Virus record (IMG/VR): IMGVR_UViG_3300036783_000051
Coordinates: 1 to 42,204 of that record
Source: a virus
Taxonomy: Duplodnaviria > Caudoviricetes
DNA length: 42,204 nt
Direction: 5' to 3' (one strand)
Part shown: positions 220 to 41,803 of the stretch, piece by piece
Numbering within the stretch: position 1 is the stretch's first letter
Layout of the letters: the number at the start of each line of letters is the position of its first letter
Notes under the pieces: generated by a model
Database searches by the model: none
Told to the model about the DNA's origin: nothing
What the model saw: only the letters and a program-made list of their open reading frames with translations
Translations under genes and position numbers: made by a program

Positions 220-371
220 TGCCAACGCCCACCACGGATGTACCAGTCAGCTTCCGTACCGAGAACCTCACGGACAATGGCGAGGCGATCGTCACTGACT
301 GCCCTGAGTGCCTCTCAGTCATCAGACTGGTCAATCTAGCCGAGCATCGCGCCAAGGCCCACTCCTCATGA
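216..371 (+). CDS. Small C2H2 zinc-finger-like protein (51 aa)
   Basis: Hand-translated: ...TDCPECLSVIRLVNLAEHRAKAHSS. ATGA overlaps at both ends (216-219, 368-371). Confidence 0.65.
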   Translation: MMPTPTTDVPVSFRTENLTDNGEAIVTDCPECLSVIRLVNLAEHRAKAHSS

Positions 372-967
372 GCTTCTTCATAGGATACGTACACAGCGAG
401 CTGGTACACGCCGCATTCATGGAGTCAGTCATCCGCGAGGGCGAACTAACCGGCGCAATTATCAAGGGCCAGGAGTCTGAGCCCTACGTCGATCAAGCCC
501 GCAACTTCCTGGTCGAACAGTTCCTGGTGAGCGACCGCGAGTGGTTCCTGTCAGTCGACACGGACGTCATCCTGCCCGAGAGAGTCATCACCAGACTCCT
601 GGCGCGGAATCGGAAGCTTATCGGCGCACTCATCTATGTCAATGCCAAGCCGCCATTCCCGCAGATATACCAGAAGATTGCCGACTTCGGTGTTGGCGGT
701 TTCGGCACATACCTGGTCGACACAGACTGGGAGCCCGGCGACCTGATCAAGGCTGGCGCTACTGGCGCAGGGTGTATGCTCATCCACCGCGAGGTTTTCG
801 AGGCCGTACCTCCCAACAAGCCATTTCGCTGGTTCCAGCATGAGCAGCGTGGCGAGGACTTGTTCGGCGAGGACGTAGTGTTCTGTGAGCGGGCCAAGCG
901 AGCAGGCCACCAGCTCTACATCGACACCGCGGTCAAGGCCGGGCACATCAAGCCCAACGTCATATAA
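368..967 (+). CDS. GT-A fold (GT2-like) glycosyltransferase
   Basis: ARN..VEQFL, WFLSVDTDV (DxD motif), GAGCMLIHREVF, GEDVVFC and GHIK motifs. Start moved to ATG 368 (ATGA overlap). Confidence 0.85.
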   Translation: MSFFIGYVHSELVHAAFMESVIREGELTGAIIKGQESEPYVDQARNFLVEQFLVSDREWFLSVDTDVILPERVITRLLARNRKLIGALIYVNAKPPFPQIYQKIADFGVGGFGTYLVDTDWEPGDLIKAGATGAGCMLIHREVFEAVPPNKPFRWFQHEQRGEDLFGEDVVFCERAKRAGHQLYIDTAVKAGHIKPNVI

Positions 968-6544: not shown

Positions 6545-7020
6545 GGACACGCACTATGCCACTACTCAGCGCCGGCCAGCTAATGCAGTACGCGCAGCAG
6601 CAGGCTCTCAATGCGGTGTTCCTGAAGTCCCAGAGTCCGGCAGCCGCGGCCACGTATCTTGCCGTCAGTACTTCTGCGTCCTCGGGCGTGCTCAGCTCGA
6701 CGGAGACGGCCATGTCGGGCACTAGCATCAACGAGTACGCGACCGCGAGCGGGTACGCGCGTCAGGCGTACGGCCCGGTCGTAGCCACTGGGGCAAGCCC
6801 ATCGCTTATCTATAACACGAGCCAGATTACCTGGGGACCGTTCACCTCCGCGCCGGGTACAGCGCAATGGGCCATTGCAACTGACGCGGTATCGGGCGGA
6901 GCTGCGCATCCTATCGCTGCATATCTGCTCGCGGCTCCGCGTACACCCGCAATCGGCGACTCACTCCAGGCTGCTGCAGGCACGGGCAGTGCAGGCGTGG
7001 GATTCATCTGCCAGGTGTGA
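6541..7020 (+). CDS. Putative minor virion / fibre-associated beta protein
   Basis: YLAVST...EYATASGYARQA...ITWGPFT...WAIATD...RTPAIGDSL pattern, as in small phage minor tail proteins. Confidence 0.65.
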   Translation: MRTRTMPLLSAGQLMQYAQQQALNAVFLKSQSPAAAATYLAVSTSASSGVLSSTETAMSGTSINEYATASGYARQAYGPVVATGASPSLIYNTSQITWGPFTSAPGTAQWAIATDAVSGGAAHPIAAYLLAAPRTPAIGDSLQAAAGTGSAGVGFICQV

Positions 7021-7021
7021 C

Positions 7022-7306
7022 ATGACCATATTCGAGATCAGCCCGCTCATCCCAGACCTACATGTACCTCGCGCGTACCCGTGCGGAGCAATCGTGGCGC
7101 CTCCGGCTTTCCATTGTGGCGCCACGCCAGCTAGCCTGTACTTGCGGGTCTGCGGCGTAGCTGGGCATGAGCAGAAAGTATGGCTGTGCCCTATTCACGC
7201 AACCATGGCAACTCACGGAGCTGCCCTGTGCCGAGAGTGCGCCAAGCGCGGAGGTATCACGCCTGTCGTTCTATACCGTCTAACTGAACCACTGAGGTTT
7301 GTTTGA
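7022..7306 (+). CDS. Cys/His-rich hypothetical protein
   Basis: ATG 7022; CGVAGH, CPIH and CREC motifs. Confidence 0.55.
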   Translation: MTIFEISPLIPDLHVPRAYPCGAIVAPPAFHCGATPASLYLRVCGVAGHEQKVWLCPIHATMATHGAALCRECAKRGGITPVVLYRLTEPLRFV

Positions 7307-24345: not shown

Positions 24346-24978
24346 CTAGCACATATCTCGCGTAGACCACGCACTCCAGTCCGTGCCGTTTCCGCTCATA
24401 GCGATCGCACGCTGAGCGTTCTGGAATGGAACAAGCATCGACTGGCCGCCGTTATGTATCTGCCAGAGGCCCCAGTCGTCGGTCGGGCTGATCGCCCAGG
24501 GCTTGCCGCTCGACTCATGCTCGGCGATACACGCCGCATGGAACGCCGTCGCGGAGCTACCGCCAGCAAGCTCCCAGAGCCGCTCCAGTCCTATGTAGCT
24601 GTAGATGCTGGACGTGCCTGGGACGACCGCTGAACCGGCCGCGTAGCTAGAACCGCTGCTACTACTACTAGCGGAGCTACTACTGGAACTGGAGCCGCCT
24701 GTACCGCCGCAGGCAAGCCATATGTGCTCGCCGACACTGATCACGTTGGGGTTAGCGATACCATTTGCCTGGGCCAGCTCGTGATACTTGTTCGGGTCGT
24801 GACAGAAGTAGCCGGCGATGCCGCCGAGGGTGTCGCCCGACCGGACGATGTAGATGACCTTAGTGACTGATACTTCCGAGACGGTTTGCGGGTGGCCTCC
24901 TAGCTCTGCCTGTCCTCCTGCGACTACGCCGCTAGCTGCGATAGCCAGCGCTGCTACCTTCAGCGCCAATACCGGCAT
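24346..24978 (-). CDS. Secreted LysM + lytic transglycosylase (Rpf/SLT-like) protein
   Basis: Signal peptide; LysM (YIVRSGDTLGGIA...NGIANPNVISVGE); poly-Ser linker; CIAEHESSG...WGLWQI catalytic motif. Confidence 0.88.
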   Translation of the reverse strand: MPVLALKVAALAIAASGVVAGGQAELGGHPQTVSEVSVTKVIYIVRSGDTLGGIAGYFCHDPNKYHELAQANGIANPNVISVGEHIWLACGGTGGSSSSSSSASSSSSGSSYAAGSAVVPGTSSIYSYIGLERLWELAGGSSATAFHAACIAEHESSGKPWAISPTDDWGLWQIHNGGQSMLVPFQNAQRAIAMSGNGTDWSAWSTRDMC

Positions 24979-29090: not shown

Positions 29091-32000
29091 CTAATCCGGG
29101 TCGACTACCCACATGTCTCTAATCGCTATGCTGTTACCGAATCCAGAGTTTTTATAGCCCTCCACGACCACCACATCGTGCATGACTTCGATAGACTCAA
29201 GCCTGGCGCGGAACCTCTCGAAGTTGAAGCGATTGATCCTGATGTAGACCTCTTCAAGCCCCTGGCCGATGCACTGGAGCGTGCAGTACTTTCGCAAGTC
29301 CGGGTACTTCAGCGTCTTTACTATCTCGTCCAGATCGTTGCCGGTACGCGAGTGAATGTTTTCGACTACATCCTGGTAGATGCGAGCCTTGACGATGCCC
29401 GCGTACACGATTAGCTTGCCTTTATTCTTGCTGCCCCAGGGCGGGGCTATGATCGCAGATACCTCGTCGCCATCATGTGTAGGTATCGGCGCGTCTAGTT
29501 CCTTCTTGACGATCGAGGCAGTTACGCGGTCGATAATGTTCGAGGTAACCTTCAACTTGAAGGGGTCCTCATCTGAAGCGAACTGCTTCATGCTCTCGAT
29601 AGTCTTGACGCCGATTCCGTGCACGTTGATCATGTCGTTCCAGCCGCTGAAAGGATGCTCTTCCCTCGCGCGGAGGATGAGAGCCGCCTTCTTGTCAGCG
29701 ATTCCGCGCACCGAGGTCAGGCCAGCGGTCAGGTACGTTCCGCTCTTGTCGGTGAAAGGCTGCCAGGTCGGCCCGCTGGTCCAGTTCGGAGCGCGGACAG
29801 GAATGCCGTGGGCGATAGCATCCTGCATCAGCTTGAATTCGGTTTCCTTGCCGGGCTCGGACTTGGCGAGCGACGAGGCGTAGAACTCAACAGGGTAGTG
29901 TACCTTGAGGTAGGCGCACCACCAGCTGACGACCGAGTAGCTGACCGCGTGAGCGATGTTGAATGCGTAAGTGCCCGAGGTGACTAGCCGCTTCCATACT
30001 TCCTCAGCAGTTTTGGCATCCATACCGTGGAGCCGGTTTGCGCCGTCGATGAAGTTGCGCATGCTGACCTGGAAAGCAGCCTGGCCAATCTTCTTCGCAA
30101 TGATTCTGCGGATTTCATTGAGGTCCGTCCACTCGAAGCCGCCGACTTTCTGGAGGATGCTAAGGATTTGCTCCTGGTATACGATCTGGCCGAAGGTATC
30201 AGCGGTGATTTCGTCAACCACGGGATGGTAACGCTTAGCTCTTTTCTTCCCATGTTTGACTTCACAATAGTCCGCCGTCGTACCCGAAAACAATGGTCCC
30301 GGCCGTGATAGCGCGCTGACAGCAGCCACTTGCCAGAAGTTGTCTGGGCATACATCCCTATTGACAATTCGTGTAGCGCGACCCGCAAACTGAAATATTC
30401 CGATGACGTCATTACGCTGAAAAATGCCCAGCGTGTCTGGATCGTCGTCTGGAATCGCATAGAGGTCCTCCAGCGTCAGCCCGGTTAGCTCTAGGCACCG
30501 GGCGATCATGCCCATAGTGGTCAGGCCAAGGAAGTCCATCTTGAGCATGCCCGCGTACTCAGCATCGTATTTGTCGATGCTCAGTACTCGTCGTCCATCT
30601 CGTTCGTAGGTTGCGCATACATCTGTGAGCGGCGAGTTGGCGACAACCAGTCCGGCCGCATGAACGGACATTCCGCGCACGCCGCCTTCGAGTCTTGTAG
30701 CCAGCCACAGCGCAGGGAAGGCATCGAAGACTGCTTTAGCGTTAGGGAACATCTCGGCCGTATCCGCCAGGGAAGCATCGAACCGTGAATCACCACCAGA
30801 CCGCTCGATGATGAGATTCGAGACGATGTCCTTTGCAGCCTTAGGTACGGAATGCACCCTAGCCACATCAACGAGTGCGTTCTTGCCCCGATAACGGATG
30901 AAATTAGCAATAGTGCCCACACATTCAACACCGTATTTCCCCTCCAGGTATTCACGCACTTCGTGACGACGGTCATCTGCGAAGTCGAGGTCGATGTCGG
31001 GCGGGTCGACTCGCGTCGTGTCAATGAACCGCTCGAAGATCATGCCCGGATAGCGCAACGGATCAATCTCGGTAATCCGTAGCAGCCAACAGACGACGGA
31101 TGCGGCCGCGCTCCCGCGTCCGGGTCCGACCGGGATGGGTACGCCGTTACCGTCTGTTTTGCACCAGCGTACTACGTCCGAGGTGGCCAAGAAGAAGTCG
31201 ATGAAGTCTTTCTCAGTGATATGCTTCATCTCGTACTGGATGCGCTCGTGGAACCAGTCCTGCTCTTTCTGCGGCCGGTTACCGATCCTGCGATACCGCC
31301 AGCCCTCGCGGAGCCACTCCCAGATCAGCTCGTTCGCGTCCCATCCGTCAGGGCAGGGAAACTGAAGCCGCTCAGCTTTCGGCAGCGTAACATTACAACG
31401 CGCCGCTATCTCTGCGGTGTTCAGGACGGCTTGCCATGCCTGCTCGCGCGGAATGCCGGAGTCGATCAGCTTCTTGGCGATAATCTGATCTGTCTCTGGA
31501 AGCGTGAGCAGTACGTCGTAGTTCCAGCTCCGCAGCATCTCATCCGCGGTGGCCATACCGCGGCCTTGCGGTCCGCATGCGTGCAGAATAACCTGCATCT
31601 CGTTGTCGGACGGGAGGACGTAGTGGCAGTCAAGAGTCATTGCGAGCGGGATGCCGGTCACCTTGGACAGGTGCGCGTACGCCCGATTGATCTTGCGAGT
31701 GCTCTCCAGCTCAGGGAATGCCTGGACTTCAAGAAAGAACCGGTCGCCGAATGTACGGGCAAACCTGGTGGCGATGCCCTCGCACTCCTCAAACGCCTTC
31801 CACTTCTGCGCGGTAGTCTCAGGCTCTGGGATGCCTTTGCCGCCGACCATGGTGCAGGCCATGCGGCTACCGGAGCAACCGGACAGTACGATGAGCCCGT
31901 CATTGAACTCGGCTACGTCCGCGCCTGTCATGGTTGGGTGCCACTTGAAGTTCTTCCAGCTCCGCGTCACGGCGAGGTTCAGGTTGCGGTAACCGGTCTG

Positions 32001-32273
32001 GTTCATCGCCAGCATGGTGAGGTGGTACTTGGTCTGCCTGGGGTCCTCGAATGTTGGTGCTGTGTACGCCTCGATGCCGAAGATGGGTATGACGCCACCG
32101 ATCTTCTTGGCTGCTTTCTCGGCGCGGAAGTGTGAACTGGTATTGCCGTGCTCGGTAAACGCGAGGTGCGTGTAGCCTAGCTGGGCGGCGCGCAGGAGAT
32201 GTTGCTCTGGCGTACCGTGCCCGTCGAGGAAGCTGTACGTAGTGTGGTGATGGAGTGATACTGCTTTTGGCAT
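29091..32273 (-). CDS. dnaE: DNA polymerase III alpha-like (family C) polymerase
   Basis: PHP domain (LHHHTTYSFLDG, FTEHG, DCHY); GPGRGSAAAS; catalytic PPDIDLDF; HAAG; KMDFLGL; YQEQIL; YAFNIAHA. Confidence 0.96.
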   Translation of the reverse strand: MPKAVSLHHHTTYSFLDGHGTPEQHLLRAAQLGYTHLAFTEHGNTSSHFRAEKAAKKIGGVIPIFGIEAYTAPTFEDPRQTKYHLTMLAMNQTGYRNLNLAVTRSWKNFKWHPTMTGADVAEFNDGLIVLSGCSGSRMACTMVGGKGIPEPETTAQKWKAFEECEGIATRFARTFGDRFFLEVQAFPELESTRKINRAYAHLSKVTGIPLAMTLDCHYVLPSDNEMQVILHACGPQGRGMATADEMLRSWNYDVLLTLPETDQIIAKKLIDSGIPREQAWQAVLNTAEIAARCNVTLPKAERLQFPCPDGWDANELIWEWLREGWRYRRIGNRPQKEQDWFHERIQYEMKHITEKDFIDFFLATSDVVRWCKTDGNGVPIPVGPGRGSAAASVVCWLLRITEIDPLRYPGMIFERFIDTTRVDPPDIDLDFADDRRHEVREYLEGKYGVECVGTIANFIRYRGKNALVDVARVHSVPKAAKDIVSNLIIERSGGDSRFDASLADTAEMFPNAKAVFDAFPALWLATRLEGGVRGMSVHAAGLVVANSPLTDVCATYERDGRRVLSIDKYDAEYAGMLKMDFLGLTTMGMIARCLELTGLTLEDLYAIPDDDPDTLGIFQRNDVIGIFQFAGRATRIVNRDVCPDNFWQVAAVSALSRPGPLFSGTTADYCEVKHGKKRAKRYHPVVDEITADTFGQIVYQEQILSILQKVGGFEWTDLNEIRRIIAKKIGQAAFQVSMRNFIDGANRLHGMDAKTAEEVWKRLVTSGTYAFNIAHAVSYSVVSWWCAYLKVHYPVEFYASSLAKSEPGKETEFKLMQDAIAHGIPVRAPNWTSGPTWQPFTDKSGTYLTAGLTSVRGIADKKAALILRAREEHPFSGWNDMINVHGIGVKTIESMKQFASDEDPFKLKVTSNIIDRVTASIVKKELDAPIPTHDGDEVSAIIAPPWGSKNKGKLIVYAGIVKARIYQDVVENIHSRTGNDLDEIVKTLKYPDLRKYCTLQCIGQGLEEVYIRINRFNFERFRARLESIEVMHDVVVVEGYKNSGFGNSIAIRDMWVVDPD

Positions 32274-33878: not shown

Positions 33879-34139
33879 TCATCGGTAGTCGGCCGTCAGC
33901 TTGGCGACGATCCTACCGAACTCTGACATGTCCTTGGCGAAGGATAGGACGATGGACTCCATCGAGTCATCCGCGTCGTAGGACGGAGGCAGCAGGCTGC
34001 CGAGTTCTTCCATGAAGTCCTCGTGCTGCTTCTTTTCTGCCCTCAGCTCCTGGCACTCCTGCCGGAGAGAGTCATTCTCGTCGCGCAGAGCGTTAAGCTC
34101 TATCTCGTGGTTGGGATCGGGCGGCGTGATCTCAGGCAT
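33879..34139 (-). CDS. Hypothetical coiled-coil protein
   Basis: GGAG RBS; heptad pattern. Confidence 0.65.
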   Translation of the reverse strand: MPEITPPDPNHEIELNALRDENDSLRQECQELRAEKKQHEDFMEELGSLLPPSYDADDSMESIVLSFAKDMSEFGRIVAKLTADYR

Positions 34140-34755
34140 CGCGCGCTCCTGCCGGTTCGCCCGCGTCCCCGAACCTGCTGTCGGGGTCTGCGCGGAGCAG
34201 CATCCCCGTGAAGTTGATCAGGTCGAAGCCGCTGTCGTCGTGACGTATTCCCAGTGTCCAGGTGCGGTACCAGAGCCGCTCGAACTTCTTGCGCACGTCC
34301 CAGATGATGCCGAGGATACCCGCCTTGCGCCAGAGCCCGCCGGTCGGCTCGTACCCGCGATCGCACATGATGCGGAGGCACGGCACGAACACTTCGAGTA
34401 GCTGGCCTACCGCGTCGGGCGTCGGCTCCATGTGCATCGCACGCATGAATGCTTCCGCGTTCAGCTGCAGGTCGATATCATCGACAGTGTGCGCTTCCGT
34501 CACGTAGTGCTCGTACAGGTCTGGGTGGCGCCATTCGTCGGGGTCGCCGCGAGCCGCAGAGCGCAGGTTTGCCTTTGCGACATCGATGGTTTGCATGTCG
34601 ATGGTCTTGAACTCGTGATCCTTCCCGGCGTGTTCCTCGAAGCTGACGCCGCACCTAGCGCACACGACCGGGATTTGTCCTTCCGGTCTGTTCATGGCCC
34701 ATTCTGCGGCGTTGGGTTCCTCATTGCCGGGCAGGCCAGCCATCGGCACGCTCAT
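34132..34755 (-). CDS. DUF1599/Nmad1-like all-alpha nucleotide-modification-associated protein (MazG-like fold)
   Basis: RGY...GILGIIWDVRKKFERLW...DDSGFDLINFTGMLL pattern; N-terminal CARC..H motif. Confidence 0.6.
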   Translation of the reverse strand: MSVPMAGLPGNEEPNAAEWAMNRPEGQIPVVCARCGVSFEEHAGKDHEFKTIDMQTIDVAKANLRSAARGDPDEWRHPDLYEHYVTEAHTVDDIDLQLNAEAFMRAMHMEPTPDAVGQLLEVFVPCLRIMCDRGYEPTGGLWRKAGILGIIWDVRKKFERLWYRTWTLGIRHDDSGFDLINFTGMLLRADPDSRFGDAGEPAGARDA

Positions 34756-35507
34756 TGCTTCCTCCAGTAGATGCTGTGACCGTCGATGTTGTGCATCGAG
34801 CTATGGATGTGATGGCGAGCGCGGTACTCCAGCACGGCGTCCACAGCCATCTGGATGTTCCAGTCGTCGATGATGCAGAACCCTCCCGGCTGGAGTAGCG
34901 GGTAGAGCGCATTCAGCGCATCCATGGTCGACACATACAGGTCGCCATCGAGCCGTAGGATCGAGAGCTGGTCGACCGGGCCGGGCAGTGACTGGGCGAA
35001 GAATCCCGGTATGAACTGGACCTGCTTGTCCAGCAGGCCGTAGCGCTTGAAGTTGTCTCGCACGTCCTGCTCGGATACGGCCAGGTGCGCTTGATCGGGT
35101 TGAGAAGCGAGTGACTGGTCATCATCGCGTGTGGGCTCGGGGAATCCTTGGAACGAGTCCGCGACCCAGACGATGCGGTCGCGCACGTCGTACACCTTGA
35201 GGACGCCGCGCATGAAGATGCACGCACCTCCGCGCCAGACTCCCGTCTCGATGAAGTCGCCAGGCACGTTGTCGCTGAGCACCCGCTCGATGAGGCGCTG
35301 CAGGTTGTGAAGCCTCTTGAGCCCAACCATGGTGTGAGCACGGAGTGGCCAGTCACGGCCGTCGTAGCGGCGCTCTTTGTCATAGACGCTGACCGGGCTC
35401 CACGCGGTCGGTATGGACGGGTCCTCGTAGATGAATCCTGTCAGCGTCCGCTTGAGTAGGTTGAGGTAGAGGTGGTGGTCATGCTCCAGTTCGATGAGAT
35501 CGCTCAC
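34752..35507 (-). CDS. TylF/MycF/NovP-family O-methyltransferase
   Basis: YLNLLKRTL, DWPLRAHTMVGLKRL, PGDFIETGVWRGG, VADSFQG, LRLDGDLYVST and IIDDW; GTG 35507 overlaps the thyX stop. Confidence 0.93.
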   Translation of the reverse strand: MSDLIELEHDHHLYLNLLKRTLTGFIYEDPSIPTAWSPVSVYDKERRYDGRDWPLRAHTMVGLKRLHNLQRLIERVLSDNVPGDFIETGVWRGGACIFMRGVLKVYDVRDRIVWVADSFQGFPEPTRDDDQSLASQPDQAHLAVSEQDVRDNFKRYGLLDKQVQFIPGFFAQSLPGPVDQLSILRLDGDLYVSTMDALNALYPLLQPGGFCIIDDWNIQMAVDAVLEYRARHHIHSSMHNIDGHSIYWRKQ

Positions 35508-36433
35508 TTGTCGAACCCGCTCTTCTGCTGGCGGTAGACCCTCTTGCTTTCGAGAGCCCACGGCAGGTCGCATGTTTCCTCGACGCGCTCTGGGCCCTGG
35601 AACGTGCACATGTGCCGAGTCTCGCAGCTGATCTTGATGAACGGCTCCAGGTACGGGTGGTTCTCGATCAGGATACGCCCCATCTCGCGCGTGATCCAGA
35701 CCAGTTCTTCCTGGAACATGACGCAGGCGCGGTAGGCGTACATCTCCAGGAACGTACGCAGACTGTATTCGCAGTAGATGAAGGTAGTCGTGCCCTCCGG
35801 CAGGATGTAGCGAGCGTCCTTGTACTGAACGTCGGCGTCGATCGCCATGTTGTAGACCTTGTGGCACTCGATAACGCAGGCAATCCACTCGGCGCGGAGT
35901 GAAGGATTGACCCATACGCTTTCCGGCATCCTGAACTCGGGCATGTCGCCCTGCCAGGTGTCCTGCTGCGACTGTTGCTTGAATGCTGCCGCGCGGGTAC
36001 GGACGATCATGTGAGTGACGGCGCGAGAGACTCCGCGCACCCCGAATGAGAACCTGATGTCCTCAAGGCTTTGGTGCGCGAGCCCGCCCTCCAGGAACTC
36101 GTCTGGGTTCTTCTGCTCCATCAGCTCGGGCGGCGCTCCAGAGCCGGCCGACTGTGCCCAGCGTGAGATGAGTTCGACATCCTCGTCGTGGATACGCTGG
36201 ATGTACGCGACCTCGATGAGGTCGGTGCCGACCTGGATCATGCCGGTGTTGCTGGGTGATTCCGTACGCCTCATGTCCTGGGTTAGCCGACGGCTGTTGC
36301 GGTTGACCGTCCCGTGCCAGGTCTTGTCGATGACGCTCCTGGATGTTTGCCTGTTGTTATTTCCTGGAACCACGTCTGGGCCGAAGGTGGCTGCCTTGCG
36401 GTTAGATGCGTAGTCTACTGACTGAGTATCCAT
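35504..36433 (-). CDS. thyX: Divergent ThyX (flavin-dependent thymidylate synthase) homologue
   Basis: FSFGVRGVSRAVTHMIVRTR...QQSQ, DARYILPEG, SLR...R and C-terminal C...C...E motifs; ATG 36433. Catalytic signature deviates from canonical. Confidence 0.82.
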   Translation of the reverse strand: MDTQSVDYASNRKAATFGPDVVPGNNNRQTSRSVIDKTWHGTVNRNSRRLTQDMRRTESPSNTGMIQVGTDLIEVAYIQRIHDEDVELISRWAQSAGSGAPPELMEQKNPDEFLEGGLAHQSLEDIRFSFGVRGVSRAVTHMIVRTRAAAFKQQSQQDTWQGDMPEFRMPESVWVNPSLRAEWIACVIECHKVYNMAIDADVQYKDARYILPEGTTTFIYCEYSLRTFLEMYAYRACVMFQEELVWITREMGRILIENHPYLEPFIKISCETRHMCTFQGPERVEETCDLPWALESKRVYRQQKSGFDK

Positions 36434-36455
36434 TTCCGTGTCCTGCCTTTGATTG

Positions 36456-37256
36456 TTACTGAACTCTGTCCCAGCCGCTCTTTCGCAGCATTGAGATGAG
36501 GGCATCCCTCGTGTTGTAATATGCCGTATCGACCCACACTTCATTCTTCCACGCGCCGAACCTCCCGGTGAGCAGTACGTCAGGGTAGCAGTCGCAGTTG
36601 TGACTGATCGGCTTGTGGATCGTGATTTGCTCTAGCCCGTCCGGTGCCGTACCAGGGAGCCATTCTGTGCACTCGTTACCGAGCAGCCATGCCGACCGCA
36701 CCCACGGGTAGTAGTTGCCGGCATTGAATATGGTGGTGTCCTCGGGCTGGTCCGGGTATGACCGCTCCATCGTGATGACAACGGGCTTGGAGCGGAAGTT
36801 ATGGCCCTTGTAGCATAGGTCGCAGAGAGGGGCCGTGTTGATGACCAGGTCGAACTCATGAACCATGATAGCGATCTCACTGGATGTGACCTTCATGTCC
36901 ATACGCGCCGCCCGACCGAGGCCAGGCGTCATGTACAGCTGCCACAGCCGGTCGTACGTCTTGATGTGCTCCCAGCAGTGGTAGCCCTCCGCCAGAATGT
37001 TGCCCTGGATGCTGATGTTGATATCGCCGTATAGCTTGTACCGGTAGTCGAGGATGCTACCGCCGATAACGAGCTGCCTGATATAGCCGTCAGGATGATC
37101 AGTGGAGATTGCGGGTATCGGTCGCTGTAGAACTAGCGGGCCTCGCTGTGGCGAACGCTCGCCTGGCGAGTAGATGGTAACCCCCGCGCCGAGGCCGTGC
37201 GCTGCATGCGCTGCTGCTAGCCCGGCTGGACCGCAACCGATAACCGCAACCTTCAC
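36456..37256 (-). CDS. FAD/NAD(P)-binding oxidoreductase-like flavoprotein
   Basis: VAVIGCGPAGLAAA Rossmann motif; DLVINTAPL; C-terminal LLTGRFGAW. Confidence 0.85.
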   Translation of the reverse strand: MKVAVIGCGPAGLAAAHAAHGLGAGVTIYSPGERSPQRGPLVLQRPIPAISTDHPDGYIRQLVIGGSILDYRYKLYGDINISIQGNILAEGYHCWEHIKTYDRLWQLYMTPGLGRAARMDMKVTSSEIAIMVHEFDLVINTAPLCDLCYKGHNFRSKPVVITMERSYPDQPEDTTIFNAGNYYPWVRSAWLLGNECTEWLPGTAPDGLEQITIHKPISHNCDCYPDVLLTGRFGAWKNEVWVDTAYYNTRDALISMLRKSGWDRVQ

Positions 37257-38332: not shown

Positions 38333-39232
38333 CTACTTCCCTGCCTTGGCTGCCTTTCGCACTTCCGGCGCTGTCGCTAGAATGTCTGCGATCATATCGG
38401 TGATAAGGTCATACCTCCCATCTTCCTCATCTTCACCATCTGGTATGGTCTCCCACCGGGGCAGGACGTTGAACCTGTCCTTGGCGAAGTATGGCGGGAA
38501 CGTGTCATTGATAAGGATGCCCTCGCGCGGGTCATCGATGTTGCTGCGCTTCTTGACGCGGAGGCAGGACACGATGTCCATGTCCGCGCAGAAGTTCTGC
38601 GCAATCGCGTAGTCCTTGCCGACGATGTTTGGCAGAACGAGGTCGTCACCCTCCTCATCTTCCTTGCGCATCGCCGTGGCGACGAAGATGGTGTTGTACT
38701 TCGCGTCAATGAGATGGTTAACGAACCGCAAGAACATACGCTGCCACTTCTGGTGGTCCTGCAGCTGCGGGATGTCCTCGTCTCGCGCTTCGTTCTCTGC
38801 GTGCTGGATACCGAGCCACCAACGAATGACTAGCTCCTGCATCTTCGACACGCTGTCGACTATGAGAACGTCTTGTTCGGTCAGGTGTTTGTCGGCCCAC
38901 TCGATACTGGCCTCAACGTGATCCCAGTCTGGCGCGCGGAGTAGCTTGGCCGTGGAGCCGACACGCTTGGCTGATATGACGCCTTTCTCCGTGCTGAGGA
39001 TATACCCGCTTGGAGCGAATGAGGCGAACACCGTTTTGCCGACGCCGCTATCGCCGTAGATGCACCAGTTGAATGACTCGTTGAAGTCCGAGAGGTCTTC
39101 AACCTTGACTGTGATCTTCGGCCGGTTACGAGCTACAGCGATGTTGGTAACATTATCGTCGCCGTCGCCTCTGCCGTTGCTACTCCGCGCCTTGCGAGCT
39201 GGTCGCTGAGTCGGTCGCCGTGTGCCTGCCAT
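38333..39232 (-). CDS. AAA_24/Sak4-like ATPase (recombinase)
   Basis: IYGDSGVGKT Walker A; LIVDSVS Walker B; YFAKDRF. Confidence 0.85.
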   Translation of the reverse strand: MAGTRRPTQRPARKARSSNGRGDGDDNVTNIAVARNRPKITVKVEDLSDFNESFNWCIYGDSGVGKTVFASFAPSGYILSTEKGVISAKRVGSTAKLLRAPDWDHVEASIEWADKHLTEQDVLIVDSVSKMQELVIRWWLGIQHAENEARDEDIPQLQDHQKWQRMFLRFVNHLIDAKYNTIFVATAMRKEDEEGDDLVLPNIVGKDYAIAQNFCADMDIVSCLRVKKRSNIDDPREGILINDTFPPYFAKDRFNVLPRWETIPDGEDEEDGRYDLITDMIADILATAPEVRKAAKAGK

Positions 39233-39241
39233 GATCTGCTC

Positions 39242-40231
39242 CTACTCTGCCGCTGACTTTCGTAGTGGTGATGGACCCGCTACCGTGTACATCGCGTCCC
39301 GGTATTCCATCCAGGCTTTCCCTCCGCGCTCGTGCATTGCGCACATGGTGAAGAACGGGCAGTAGGTGCACATGTCGTTCTTGACCTTGTTCACAGGCAG
39401 CTTGCCGCGACGAACAAGATTCATGACGTATATCTCGTCAGCTAGCGCTCGCATCTGGTAGTTAACCTCGCGCGGAGTACGGTCCACAAACTCGCGCAGG
39501 AACCTCTTGGCCGGCTGAACCTTGCTCACTGAACCGTTCTTGTTCAGGTACGCTCCGGCCGCGTTACGCTGGCGAAGGTCAGGCATGGCCTTGCGCAGGA
39601 AGTTATACCGGATACCGTCAATGGTATCCTTGCTGCCGATGACACCCTGGTGGCGGAGTACGATCGTGGCTACAGCAAAGTAGGAGCCCGCCTGATTGTC
39701 TAGCGGAAGGTGCATGGTCTTGATGGAAGCTGCCGTTTTATGCTCCATCAGTTCCATCAGGTTGTCATAGTGGTTGATCTCTACGCCGTCGAAGATTCCG
39801 ATGAAGATCGCGATGACTTTGCCGTCGCGCATGATCTCTATCTCGAATGGCTGCTCAACAGCTAGCACTTCCCAGTACGGGTCATCCTCGTATTCCTGGA
39901 TGTATCCCCGGAGCATTGCCTCGCCTAGCTCGCCCGCTTCCTCATACACGGGCTGCTCAAACCATTCTCTGTCATGGTCAGCGTAGTTGGCCTTGATGTA
40001 CCTGATCTCATCGCCAACCCAGTTCTTCCAAGTCACTGCTGGGAGCGGGCCGCGTTCAAAGCCTGGTTCATACCAGAGTGCGAGGGCCTCGTGGACGCCG
40101 ATCCCGAACCATAGCGCATCGGCGGGTTTTGCTCTAGGCCGGAGATTGTCAATGTAAGCCCACTTCCAGCGTTGCGGACAGCGTCCGAACGTGTTGCGCT
40201 CACTATTGCTGATGATAGGTACATCGCTCAC
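39242..40231 (-). CDS. Cas4/AddB-like PD-(D/E)XK exonuclease
   Basis: SERNTFGRCP, GIGVHEALA, VEQPF, GIFD, EHKT and CTYCPFFTMC (4-Cys Fe-S staple). Confidence 0.88.
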   Translation of the reverse strand: MSDVPIISNSERNTFGRCPQRWKWAYIDNLRPRAKPADALWFGIGVHEALALWYEPGFERGPLPAVTWKNWVGDEIRYIKANYADHDREWFEQPVYEEAGELGEAMLRGYIQEYEDDPYWEVLAVEQPFEIEIMRDGKVIAIFIGIFDGVEINHYDNLMELMEHKTAASIKTMHLPLDNQAGSYFAVATIVLRHQGVIGSKDTIDGIRYNFLRKAMPDLRQRNAAGAYLNKNGSVSKVQPAKRFLREFVDRTPREVNYQMRALADEIYVMNLVRRGKLPVNKVKNDMCTYCPFFTMCAMHERGGKAWMEYRDAMYTVAGPSPLRKSAAE

Positions 40232-41206: not shown

Positions 41207-41803
41207 CTATAACGATACGGTAACGGCGCTCTGTACGTCGTCGTCGCGCGGAGGGGCTGCTACGGGTTTAACCCACACACCGCGGAACCCAACCCGGTAA
41301 AGGCACGGCCAGCTGCGTGGCTTCCGCGCCGTGAACGTGGACATCAGCACTGCGCCCGGACGCATCATGTCCTGGACCAGGTTCTCCCACTTGACCTCGA
41401 AGACGTCATCCTTGAACGGACGCGCGGTGAATACGATGTCTGGTACTTCCCAGGATGGCTGATTGTCGAGGTTGCTGAGGTCGCGTATCTCGCATTGGAC
41501 GCCTAGCTCTTTTGCGGCGGCGACATAATCCTCGAACAGCTCGAAGCCATACTCGATGAGGCCCTGCTGCTTGGCCCACACAAGCTTGGTCCCGATACCG
41601 CTGCCGGCCTCCCAGAAGGATATGGGGCCGATGCTATGCGAATCCGTCCGCTTGTAGTACTTGACCGCTACATCGAGCATCTCTGCCCAGTCGCGTATGT
41701 CTGACGGACTCCAGCGCCATCTGTCTGGGTCTGGCTCACGCCCGTGCTCTTTGGCGAGCTGAGACATCTCCATGTCGAACAGTCTCTTCAGTGTGAAAGT
41801 CAT
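41207..41803 (-). CDS. Class I SAM-dependent methyltransferase
   Basis: FWEAGSGIG (motif I), YGFEL (motif II), DIVFTARPF, MRPGAVL. Confidence 0.8.
   Translation of the reverse strand: MTFTLKRLFDMEMSQLAKEHGREPDPDRWRWSPSDIRDWAEMLDVAVKYYKRTDSHSIGPISFWEAGSGIGTKLVWAKQQGLIEYGFELFEDYVAAAKELGVQCEIRDLSNLDNQPSWEVPDIVFTARPFKDDVFEVKWENLVQDMMRPGAVLMSTFTARKPRSWPCLYRVGFRGVWVKPVAAPPRDDDVQSAVTVSL

What the first reader, a model, noticed from the sequence alone, without database searches (positions are those of the whole stretch)
34132..37256. Candidate new DNA hypermodification operon: flavoprotein + non-canonical ThyX + TylF sugar O-methyltransferase + DUF1599/MazG-like protein
Seen: four consecutive - strand genes between the SSB/recombination module and a phage-encoded DnaE; the last three are coupled by GTGA (35504-35507) and ATGA (34752-34755) overlaps. 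Known: phages that replace or hypermodify a base typically pair a thymidylate-synthase-like enzyme with an all-alpha pyrophosphatase that removes the canonical dNTP and with their own polymerase. TylF/MycF/NovP enzymes O-methylate sugar hydroxyls in macrolides, novobiocin and glycopeptidolipids, and are not to my knowledge established nucleotide enzymes. Inference: the ThyX-like enzyme makes a modified pyrimidine nucleotide, the flavoprotein and TylF tailor it (an O-methylated sugar or a methoxy group), and DnaE incorporates it, giving resistance to restriction or CRISPR.
Basis: partly seen in the sequence, partly recalled or inferred. Interest (0 to 1): 0.88.

Follow-up and report, generated by a model that had tools for sequence, protein, structure and literature searches.

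The report
Sugar methylase in phage thymine-modification module
An uncultured phage carries an antibiotic-type sugar methyltransferase inside a widespread flavoprotein-ThyX gene module that likely decorates thymine at TG sites with a sugar chain, and the methyltransferase is predicted to methylate that sugar, giving a testable route to the unexplained modified DNA of Pseudomonas therapy phages.

Summary
The four genes and both overlaps are real. Flavoprotein, ThyX-like gene, small helical gene and DnaE form a conserved module of actinophages; remote homologues occur in Pbunaviruses, whose DNA carries sugar-modified thymidine at TG sites (362 U in F8, 390 U in 14-1; genes not identified, PMC12191111). 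TylF is a clade-specific insert: 9 of 42 de-duplicated loci, one clade, never together with a second methyltransferase family found in 12 of 42. That second family is present in 14-1 and missing from F8 as a clean single-gene indel; the masses differ by 28 U, two CH2 (the authors read 390 as a pentose ring instead). Strongly avoided 6-bp palindromes spare TG in the window (0 of 9) and in module genomes (4 of 101 against 24 of 106 in controls), while T-containing sites without TG are purged, so T is not fully replaced. Best reading: TG-biased sugar decoration of thymine, O-methylated by TylF (0.45). Main rival: TylF methylates a glycan made by a glycosyltransferase at 365-967. No chemistry is shown. 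The scan noted the core module before on other DNA; my look-ups returned no note with TylF or the 28 U link.

The parts
36456..37256 (-). Phage-type FAD flavoprotein (PHROG 8720), core of the module; fold shared with protoporphyrinogen oxidase, UDP-galactopyranose mutase and D-amino-acid oxidase
   Evidence: remote homologue of Pbunavirus JG024 gp66
35504..36433 (-). Non-canonical ThyX-like protein: RTR(145-147) for RHR, S155-Q-Q157 for SxR, no conserved His at the folate-side position
34752..35507 (-). TylF/MycF/NovP-family SAM- and metal-dependent sugar O-methyltransferase, DGDLY and IDD motifs intact
34132..34755 (-). ORF4: variable N-terminus plus a conserved four-helix domain (about residues 85-200), probably DUF1599/Nmad1-like; activity unknown
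33879..34139 (-). Small coiled-coil ORF overlapping the end of ORF4, kept downstream in the TylF-bearing relatives examined; no function assigned
29091..32273 (-). Phage DnaE (PHP + Pol III alpha), constant downstream partner of the module
365..967 (+). GT-A-type glycosyltransferase-like gene (DxD) before the terminase genes; outside the block, possible alternative source of a TylF substrate

Best explanation
The block is a clade-specific version of a widespread phage flavoprotein-ThyX-DnaE module that likely attaches a sugar-derived chain to C5 of a fraction of thymidines, probably those in TG steps, and the TylF enzyme is predicted to O-methylate a hydroxyl of that chain. Shown: gene content, linkage, TylF monophyly, altered ThyX motif, homology to Pbunavirus genes, TG-sparing palindrome avoidance, methyltransferase indel between 14-1 and F8. 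Inferred mechanism: the ThyX-like protein keeps the dUMP/FAD-side residues (R145, R147, S155, R208, R235) but has lost the folate-side His, so it would use the flavin-N5 iminium relay of ThyX to put a sugar-derived unit instead of a one-carbon unit on dUMP C5 (dU + pentose - H2O + 2H = 362.13, the F8 mass); the flavoprotein would activate or reduce the sugar donor; ORF4 and the MazG/HD/HAD enzymes that swap in relatives would tune nucleotide pools; DnaE would insert the product with context bias. I favour this nucleotide-level route over a DNA-level one by only about 55:45. TylF would stand in for the Methyltransf_11-type enzyme of other module phages; predicted nucleoside 376 or 390 U. Expected benefit: protection of TG-containing restriction sites.
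For: Module conserved in 89 cultured actinophage records (neighbourhoods of 6 read) and in 5 of 5 near-complete terminase relatives. Pbunavirus homology: global hhalign 94.7%, E 1.2e-8; the three Lindbergviridae/Rhizobium flavoproteins are the only non-actinophage hits under E 0.01 among 2582 ORFs; Foldseek hit to Pbunavirus PA5 protein E 2e-6; JG024 flavoprotein and ThyX-like are 100% identical to 14-1's. F8 and 14-1 carry 362 U and 390 U thymidine derivatives on about a quarter of T, TG motif (PMC12191111 section 8). Palindromes: window 0 of 9 strongly avoided sites contain TG (14 of 50 eligible do; rank test p 0.002); 17 module genomes 4 of 101 against 11 controls 24 of 106; per-genome p 0.0013. 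TylF: one clade 100/99 with end branches up to 0.54, 9 of 42 loci, MT11 12 of 42, both 0; translationally coupled to ThyX or a neighbour. MT11 in 14-1 (6713-7207), absent from F8 as a ~500-bp gap; 390-362 = 2 x CH2. SP-15 makes a ribose-labelled C5-pentyl uracil before replication and has two Thy1-family genes, one beside a FabG-like reductase (PMC5977210 passages); FabG-like genes also sit in module phages.
Against: No enzyme or DNA of this phage was assayed. The flavoprotein link to Pbunavirus is remote (local hhalign only 74-76%; the window's profile missed JG024). The END authors read 390 U, with MS/MS I could not see, as a cyclised aldopentose, not a dimethyl product; the indel comparison is two phages. 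TA-containing palindromes are spared too (5 of 101 against 10 of 106); two controls (TM4 1.09, phiKMV 0.81) overlap the module range; the window alone gives hypergeometric p 0.038; module genomes are related and controls were hand-picked. TylF/MT11 exclusion is one acquisition, so one observation. Other viral TylFs sit by glycosyltransferases in 12 of 15 loci, and both TylF genomes where I could look (window, G001) encode a glycosyltransferase. No dNMP kinase was detected in the complete relative G001 (63 of 83 called ORFs scanned), and motif-specific partial modification is easier to explain after replication. 21 of 42 loci show neither methyltransferase. SP-15 gp130 looks very divergent and no flavoprotein homologue was found in the 102 kb of 222 kb of SP-15 that I fetched.
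Confidence: 0.45

Rival explanations
1. The core module modifies thymidine, but TylF is a passenger that O-methylates a virion or protein glycan made by the glycosyltransferase at 365-967, as suggested by Che8-like phages whose glycosyltransferase carries a TylF-like domain.
For: 12 of 15 other viral TylF loci have a glycosyltransferase neighbour; GT gene in window and G001; 18 F1 mycobacteriophage records carry a GT/methyltransferase with weak TylF similarity; Che8 virions are glycosylated (PMC11256854 passage citing Freeman 2023).
Against: TylF sits 34 kb from the GT, on the other strand, overlapping ThyX or its neighbour in all 9 loci although the neighbour gene is swapped; GT homologues also occur in G002 and G017, where no TylF was found (72% and 65% complete); an unrelated methyltransferase fills the same slot in other module phages and tracks a +28 U shift in Pbunaviruses.
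Confidence: 0.25
2. The sugar is installed after replication on DNA at TG steps (by the flavoprotein, or in this clade by the glycosyltransferase next to the terminase), the ThyX-like enzyme supplying only a small precursor; TylF then methylates the sugar on DNA.
For: Motif-restricted, partial modification in F8; no dNMP kinase detected in G001; known thymidine hypermodifications are post-replicative (PMC8989533 passages).
Against: The GT is absent from 16 of 18 module genomes tested, including JG024, and from 5 of 5 near-complete relatives; the slot is filled with nucleotide-pool enzymes (MazG, HD, HIT, deoxyribosyltransferase-like, HAD); the paper reports no hmU background in the passages I read.
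Confidence: 0.15
3. No modified base: the ThyX-like protein makes dTMP, perhaps with the flavoprotein as partner reductase; the other genes are pool-sanitising or host-directed enzymes.
For: dUMP/FAD-side residues kept; JG024's homologue passes the TIGR02170 cut-off, 88.1 against 87.9; no modification is reported for any actinophage with the module in my searches.
Against: Signature residues present in D29 and phiC31 ThyX are replaced; TG-sparing avoidance pattern; long retention of a sugar O-methyltransferase has no role in dTMP synthesis.
Confidence: 0.15

Closest known systems
Pbunavirus thymidine hypermodification (phages F8 and 14-1; Yee et al., bioRxiv 2025.03.31.646159, PMC12191111)
   Same: Same gene logic: remote flavoprotein homologue, RTR-type ThyX-like gene, DUF1599-like helical domain, DnaE, optional methyltransferase; same sparing of TG palindromes (JG024 0.98 against 0.73/0.70; window 0.84 against 0.57/0.60).
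   Different: Their pathway genes are not identified in the text I read; they carry a HAD fusion and a Methyltransf_11-type enzyme (14-1) or none (F8), no TylF; myovirus of Pseudomonas against an actinophage-like siphovirus.
SEA-PHAGES gene set 'oxidoreductase - phosphatase - (methyltransferase, FabG-like reductase) - DnaE - ThyX-like' of clusters D, R, BN, EF, DG, DV
   Same: Flavoprotein 23-33% identical over full length, ThyX-like up to 49% (Onyinye), same position after exonuclease/Sak4 genes.
   Different: Annotated only, no function tested in the papers found; no TylF in 6 of 6 tested; the window's clade lacks the HAD phosphatase and places ThyX directly after the flavoprotein.
TylF/MycF/NovP sugar O-methyltransferases (PF05711; PDB 4x7u MycF, 2wk1 NovP, 4cdz/5i10, recalled as SpnK)
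   Same: Full-length match, E 3e-81 to 9e-78, motifs intact.
   Different: Known substrates are sugars on antibiotics and glycolipids (own knowledge); here a phage clade coupled to a ThyX-like gene; nearest named actinomycete proteins are 51-55% identical.
Canonical flavin-dependent thymidylate synthase ThyX (PF02511, TIGR02170)
   Same: Thy1 fold signature, conserved Arg/Ser residues, DAR and final Arg-Gln motifs.
   Different: RHR to RTR, SxR to SQQ, folate-side His lost, long N-terminal extension, four conserved Cys; below the equivalog cut-off.
Bacillus phage SP-15 5-(4,5-dihydroxypentyl)uracil
   Same: C5-linked sugar-derived chain on uracil, partial replacement of T, made before replication, Thy1-family gene beside a FabG-like reductase.
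   Different: Its ThyX-like genes look unlike this clade by eye, no flavoprotein homologue in the 102 kb examined, further glucosyl and phosphoglucuronate groups.

Membership tests
Canonical ThyX | RHRxxxxxxxSxR signature | tested here: not met
   RTRAAAFKQQSQQ; D29 and phiC31 ThyX keep RHR...SQR. SQQ in 6 of 9 TylF loci plus 1 short locus without TylF; SQR in the other 3.
Canonical ThyX | TIGR02170 equivalog cut-off | tested here: not met
   51.9 against 87.9 bits
Canonical ThyX | Folate-side His (GH of GHxSxxEH; role recalled) | tested here: not met
   Aligns to L118/A119; neighbouring H120 is M, Y, F or K in relatives
Canonical ThyX | dUMP to dTMP activity, thyA complementation | not testable with these tools
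   needs assay
TylF/MycF/NovP O-methyltransferase | Pfam PF05711 over cut-off, full length | tested here: met
   293.6 bits, E 1.5e-87
TylF/MycF/NovP O-methyltransferase | SAM-binding ETGVWRGG and acidic DGD / DD metal-catalytic motifs | tested here: met
   aligned unchanged to 4x7u, 5i10, 4cdz; motif roles recalled
TylF/MycF/NovP O-methyltransferase | Methylates a sugar hydroxyl | not testable with these tools
   substrate unknown
DUF1599 / Nmad1 (PF07659) | Profile match | tested here: not met
   0 of 12 members match PF07659 at E 1; none of the 120 listed of 291 homologues carries a Pfam label; 8 positional counterparts in cultured phages also lack it
DUF1599 / Nmad1 (PF07659) | Four-helix fold and remote likeness | tested here: inconclusive
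   Four helices, pLDDT 68; weak Foldseek list (best E 0.084) rich in Nmad/DUF1599/gp74 entries; Atlas lead 0.89, 16% of members DUF1599; hhalign to counterparts weak, E 0.17 and 0.004
MazG-type NTP pyrophosphatase | ExxE...ExxD metal motif / MazG profile | tested here: not met
   No such invariant columns, no Pfam match; true MazG-like genes occur separately or fused in relatives. PDB fold search of ORF4 could not be run.
UDP-galactopyranose mutase | Closest fold and sequence family | tested here: inconclusive
   Z 12.6 (4dsg; rmsd 4.1, 251 aligned) tied with protoporphyrinogen oxidase Z 12.8 and others; sequence matches only over the Rossmann start
Pbunavirus-type T hypermodification | Modified thymidine in virion DNA | not testable with these tools
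   uncultured; only the indirect palindrome signature
Pbunavirus-type T hypermodification | Flavoprotein + ThyX-like + helical domain + DnaE gene set | tested here: met
   that this set makes the modification is itself inferred
Full base replacement (T4 hmC, SPO1 hmU type) | All T replaced, so T-containing restriction sites need no avoidance | tested here: not met
   CTCGAG 0 against 15 expected, TCCGGA 0/9, GAGCTC 1/16, ATCGAT 2/17

The most novel reading that the evidence does not exclude
A ThyX-family flavoenzyme repurposed to forge a C-C bond between uracil C5 and a sugar, the core of an undescribed modular pathway shared by Pbunaviruses and hundreds of actinophage-like viruses, in which interchangeable methyltransferases, here one recruited from antibiotic sugar biosynthesis, produce O-methylated sugar-thymidines; the 14-1 nucleoside is then the dimethyl ether of the F8 one.
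Probability: 0.25. Interest if true: 0.92.

Novelty: new variant of a known kind. Interest (0 to 1): 0.72.

Why it matters
Pbunaviruses are used in phage therapy and their modified thymidine has no assigned genes in the text I read. This work names candidate genes, gives a one-gene natural experiment (14-1 against F8) that a high-resolution mass can settle (390.164 against 390.127), and extends the prediction to cultured actinophages that any SEA-PHAGES laboratory can test. A TylF enzyme acting on a nucleotide or DNA would be a new substrate class for the family, and a ThyX that transfers a sugar would be new flavin chemistry and a tool for making modified DNA.

Tried and rejected
ORF4 against Pfam/PHROG/NCBIfam, phage tblastn (no match) and local profiles of cultured counterparts (none): no firm family. 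PDB sequence searches for the flavoprotein gave only Rossmann-start matches; no single fold family stands out, so I do not call it a mutase. A PDB fold search of ORF4 never ran. SQQ as a TylF-linked change: rejected as strict, 3 of 9 TylF loci have SQR and 1 SQQ locus shows no TylF. 4-bp palindromes show no TG sparing (window 0.77 against 0.96). Pfam GT2 search of G001, G002, G003 found nothing and missed the GT later found by PHROG; L093 and L095 were not searchable. One search missed its positive control and was set aside; absence of the flavoprotein in 11 controls rests on local profiles. The ORF-list comparison hid the 14-1 methyltransferase under an overlapping opposite-strand frame; the indel rests on the blastn gap and profile search of that call and. 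Paper searches listed no study assigning a function to this module or to a phage TylF on DNA; the library lacks most subscription papers. No sequencing-run or complex-prediction tools were used.
Full report
Observation. The window is a 42,204-base virus record, a partial siphovirus genome with actinophage-like genes. The four minus-strand ORFs and the GTGA and ATGA overlaps are as described. TylF is a firm call (Pfam E 1.5e-87; E about 1e-79 to MycF and NovP with motifs intact). The ThyX-like protein matches Thy1 (E 2e-23) but falls under the ThyX equivalog cut-off. Against D29 and phiC31 ThyX it has RTR for RHR, SQQ for SQR and Leu/Ala at the conserved His before the ExxEH motif, while R145, R147, S155, R208 and R235 are invariant or nearly so in 21 relatives; the roles of these residues are recalled. 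The flavoprotein is PHROG 8720, unknown function; its model (pLDDT 77) has the fold of protoporphyrinogen oxidase, UDP-galactopyranose mutase and D-amino-acid oxidase without a clear winner. ORF4 has no family match; four predicted helices, a weak fold list rich in Nmad/DUF1599 entries and an Atlas lead make DUF1599-like probable but unproven.

The core is widespread. The flavoprotein matches 89 cultured phage records, all actinophages, and 670 clusters at 50% identity at E up to 1e-10. In the six cultured neighbourhoods read it lies with a phosphatase, a small helical protein, DnaE and a ThyX-like gene, sometimes with a methyltransferase and a FabG-like reductase (same set in the table of PMC11385102, passage). 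All 5 near-complete contigs among 12 terminase relatives tested carry it. Pbunavirus JG024, Wifcevirus ECML-117 and Rhizobium phage RHph_Y65 have a like set; their flavoproteins are remote homologues by profile search (E 1e-4 to 7e-3 among 2582 ORFs), global hhalign (94.7%; local only 74-76%) and Foldseek (PA5 protein, E 2e-6).

TylF is an accessory. After merging loci at 97% ThyX identity, 42 loci remain: TylF in 9, a Methyltransf_11-type enzyme in 12, both in 0, neither in 21; 14 of the 42 do not reach DnaE. The 9 module TylF rows long enough for a tree form one clade among 35 viral TylFs (100/99) with end branches up to 0.54: one gain, long retention, with gene order and neighbour changing. 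TylF was found in 1 of 18 and 0 of 12 further records, many incomplete.

Outside evidence for function. Yee et al. (PMC12191111; section 8 read whole, other passages, figures and supplements not seen) report thymidine derivatives of 362 U in F8 and 390 U in 14-1 on about a quarter of T, with TG-containing sites resistant to cutting; the text read names no genes. Both phages carry the flavoprotein, ThyX-like and helical-domain genes. The methyltransferase family of the actinophage slot has a homologue in JG024 (E 2e-48), identical in 14-1 and absent from F8; 14-1 bases 6710-7210 are the only large gap in the first 33.8 kb of the alignment. The mass difference equals two CH2 (390.164), whereas the authors' reading, a cyclised aldopentose backed by MS/MS that I could not see, gives 390.127. 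This is a lead from two phages, not a proof. 362.13 also equals dU plus pentose minus water plus 2H, what ThyX chemistry would give with a sugar in place of the one-carbon unit; PMC8989533 (passages) describes the flavin iminium and exocyclic methylene steps. SP-15 offers a precedent for a ribose-derived C5 chain made before replication, with two Thy1-family genes (PMC5977210 passages and reference titles), but its genes are not close to this clade and no flavoprotein homologue appeared in 102 kb of its 222 kb. PMC13307970 and PMC13390438 (passages) added nothing on these genes.

A genomic signature. If T in TG is shielded, restriction sites with TG need not be avoided. The TG class was taken from the paper; thresholds (expected at least 8, observed/expected under 0.25) were set once after a first look. 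In the window 0 of 9 strongly avoided 6-bp palindromes contain TG, against 14 of 50 eligible; CTCGAG is 0 against 15 expected, CTGCAG 16 against 14. Over 17 module genomes 4 of 101 contain TG, over 11 controls 24 of 106; per-genome medians 0.70 against 0.14 log2 units, p 0.0013. Against: TA sites are spared as well (5 of 101 against 10 of 106), TM4 and phiKMV overlap the module range, 4-bp palindromes show nothing, genomes are related, some were only partly fetched, and controls were hand-picked. The purge of T-containing non-TG sites argues against full replacement of T.

Rival for TylF. Other viral TylFs neighbour glycosyltransferases in 12 of the 15 loci scanned (of 31 fetched outside the module). 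The window (365-967) and the complete relative G001 encode a GT-A-like protein before the terminase, and F1 mycobacteriophages with glycosylated virions have a GT with a TylF-like domain (PMC11256854 passages; Freeman 2023 not read). The GT is absent from 16 of 18 module records and present in 4 of 12 terminase relatives, none with a TylF found, so the module does not need it; but I found no TylF genome shown to lack it.

Mechanism and odds. Most likely (0.45): sugar-chain decoration of thymine in TG steps by the ThyX-like enzyme and flavoprotein, O-methylated by TylF; nucleotide-level synthesis is slightly favoured because the slot is full of nucleotide-pool enzymes, although no dNMP kinase was detected in G001 (63 of 83 called ORFs scanned). 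Rivals: TylF on a virion glycan (0.25), installation on DNA after replication (0.15), no modified base (0.15). All chemistry is inferred.

Novelty. Eight paper searches listed no functional study of the module or of a phage TylF acting on nucleotides; the library is incomplete. Earlier notes of this scan describe the core module on other DNA, some with the Pbunavirus link and with aminotransferase or carbamoyltransferase accessories (unchecked AI notes, read after I had reached the same link); none returned holds TylF with ThyX, none lies on look-alike DNA, none matched the F8/14-1 methyltransferase query. Verdict: new variant of a known kind, interest 0.72.

Noticed in passing
14-1 (W21) 6713-7207; JG024 L139:6795-7292: Methyltransf_11-type gene homologous to the module methyltransferase of actinophages; in 14-1, absent from F8; 131 phage records match (Pseudomonas 58, Gordonia 45, Mycobacterium 26, Burkholderia 1, Salmonella 1). 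It lies 40 kb from ThyX in Pbunaviruses.
   Followed up: yes
window 365-967 (+): GT-A-type glycosyltransferase-like gene just before the terminase genes; homologues in G001, G002, G017, G019, G022, G023; only 7 weak matches among cultured phages.
   Followed up: partly
L132:16482-17681 (G001): GmhB-GmhA fusion (heptose bisphosphate phosphatase + phosphoheptose isomerase) in the complete TylF-bearing relative; Rhizobium phage RHph_Y65 has a phosphoheptose isomerase near its module. Possible sugar-phosphate supply; this region is outside the window.
   Followed up: partly
window 41207-41803 (-): ORF with a SAM-binding-like EAGSGIG motif and DIVFTARPF, resembling by eye a class I methyltransferase; conserved at 56-70% in close relatives; no Pfam, PHROG or NCBIfam match.
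   Followed up: no
window 36459-37256, residues 148-152 and 221-223: Invariant C148, H152, C221, C223 in 15 close flavoproteins could form a metal site; the ThyX-like proteins keep C237, C270, C276, C288.
   Followed up: no
L011, L091, L095, L115: ORF4 is replaced by a different small helical protein family (pyrophosphatase-like by eye) in the same slot, keeping the ORF4-like N-terminal peptide in L115.
   Followed up: partly
L004:12193-12651 and L068:12974-13525: Microbacterium phage Sparcetus and coliphage ECML-117 share a FabG-like reductase, a glyoxalase-like protein (fold label by eye) and the same helical-domain subtype beside the module.
   Followed up: partly
window 24346-24978 (-): LysM plus lysozyme-like (SLT/Rpf-type) protein on the strand opposite the amidase endolysin.
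   Followed up: no
G012 38478-39257, G015 1370-2137, G017 39097-39867: Flavoprotein matches reported with 1-2 stops inside the matched range; not inspected, may be gene ends.
   Followed up: no
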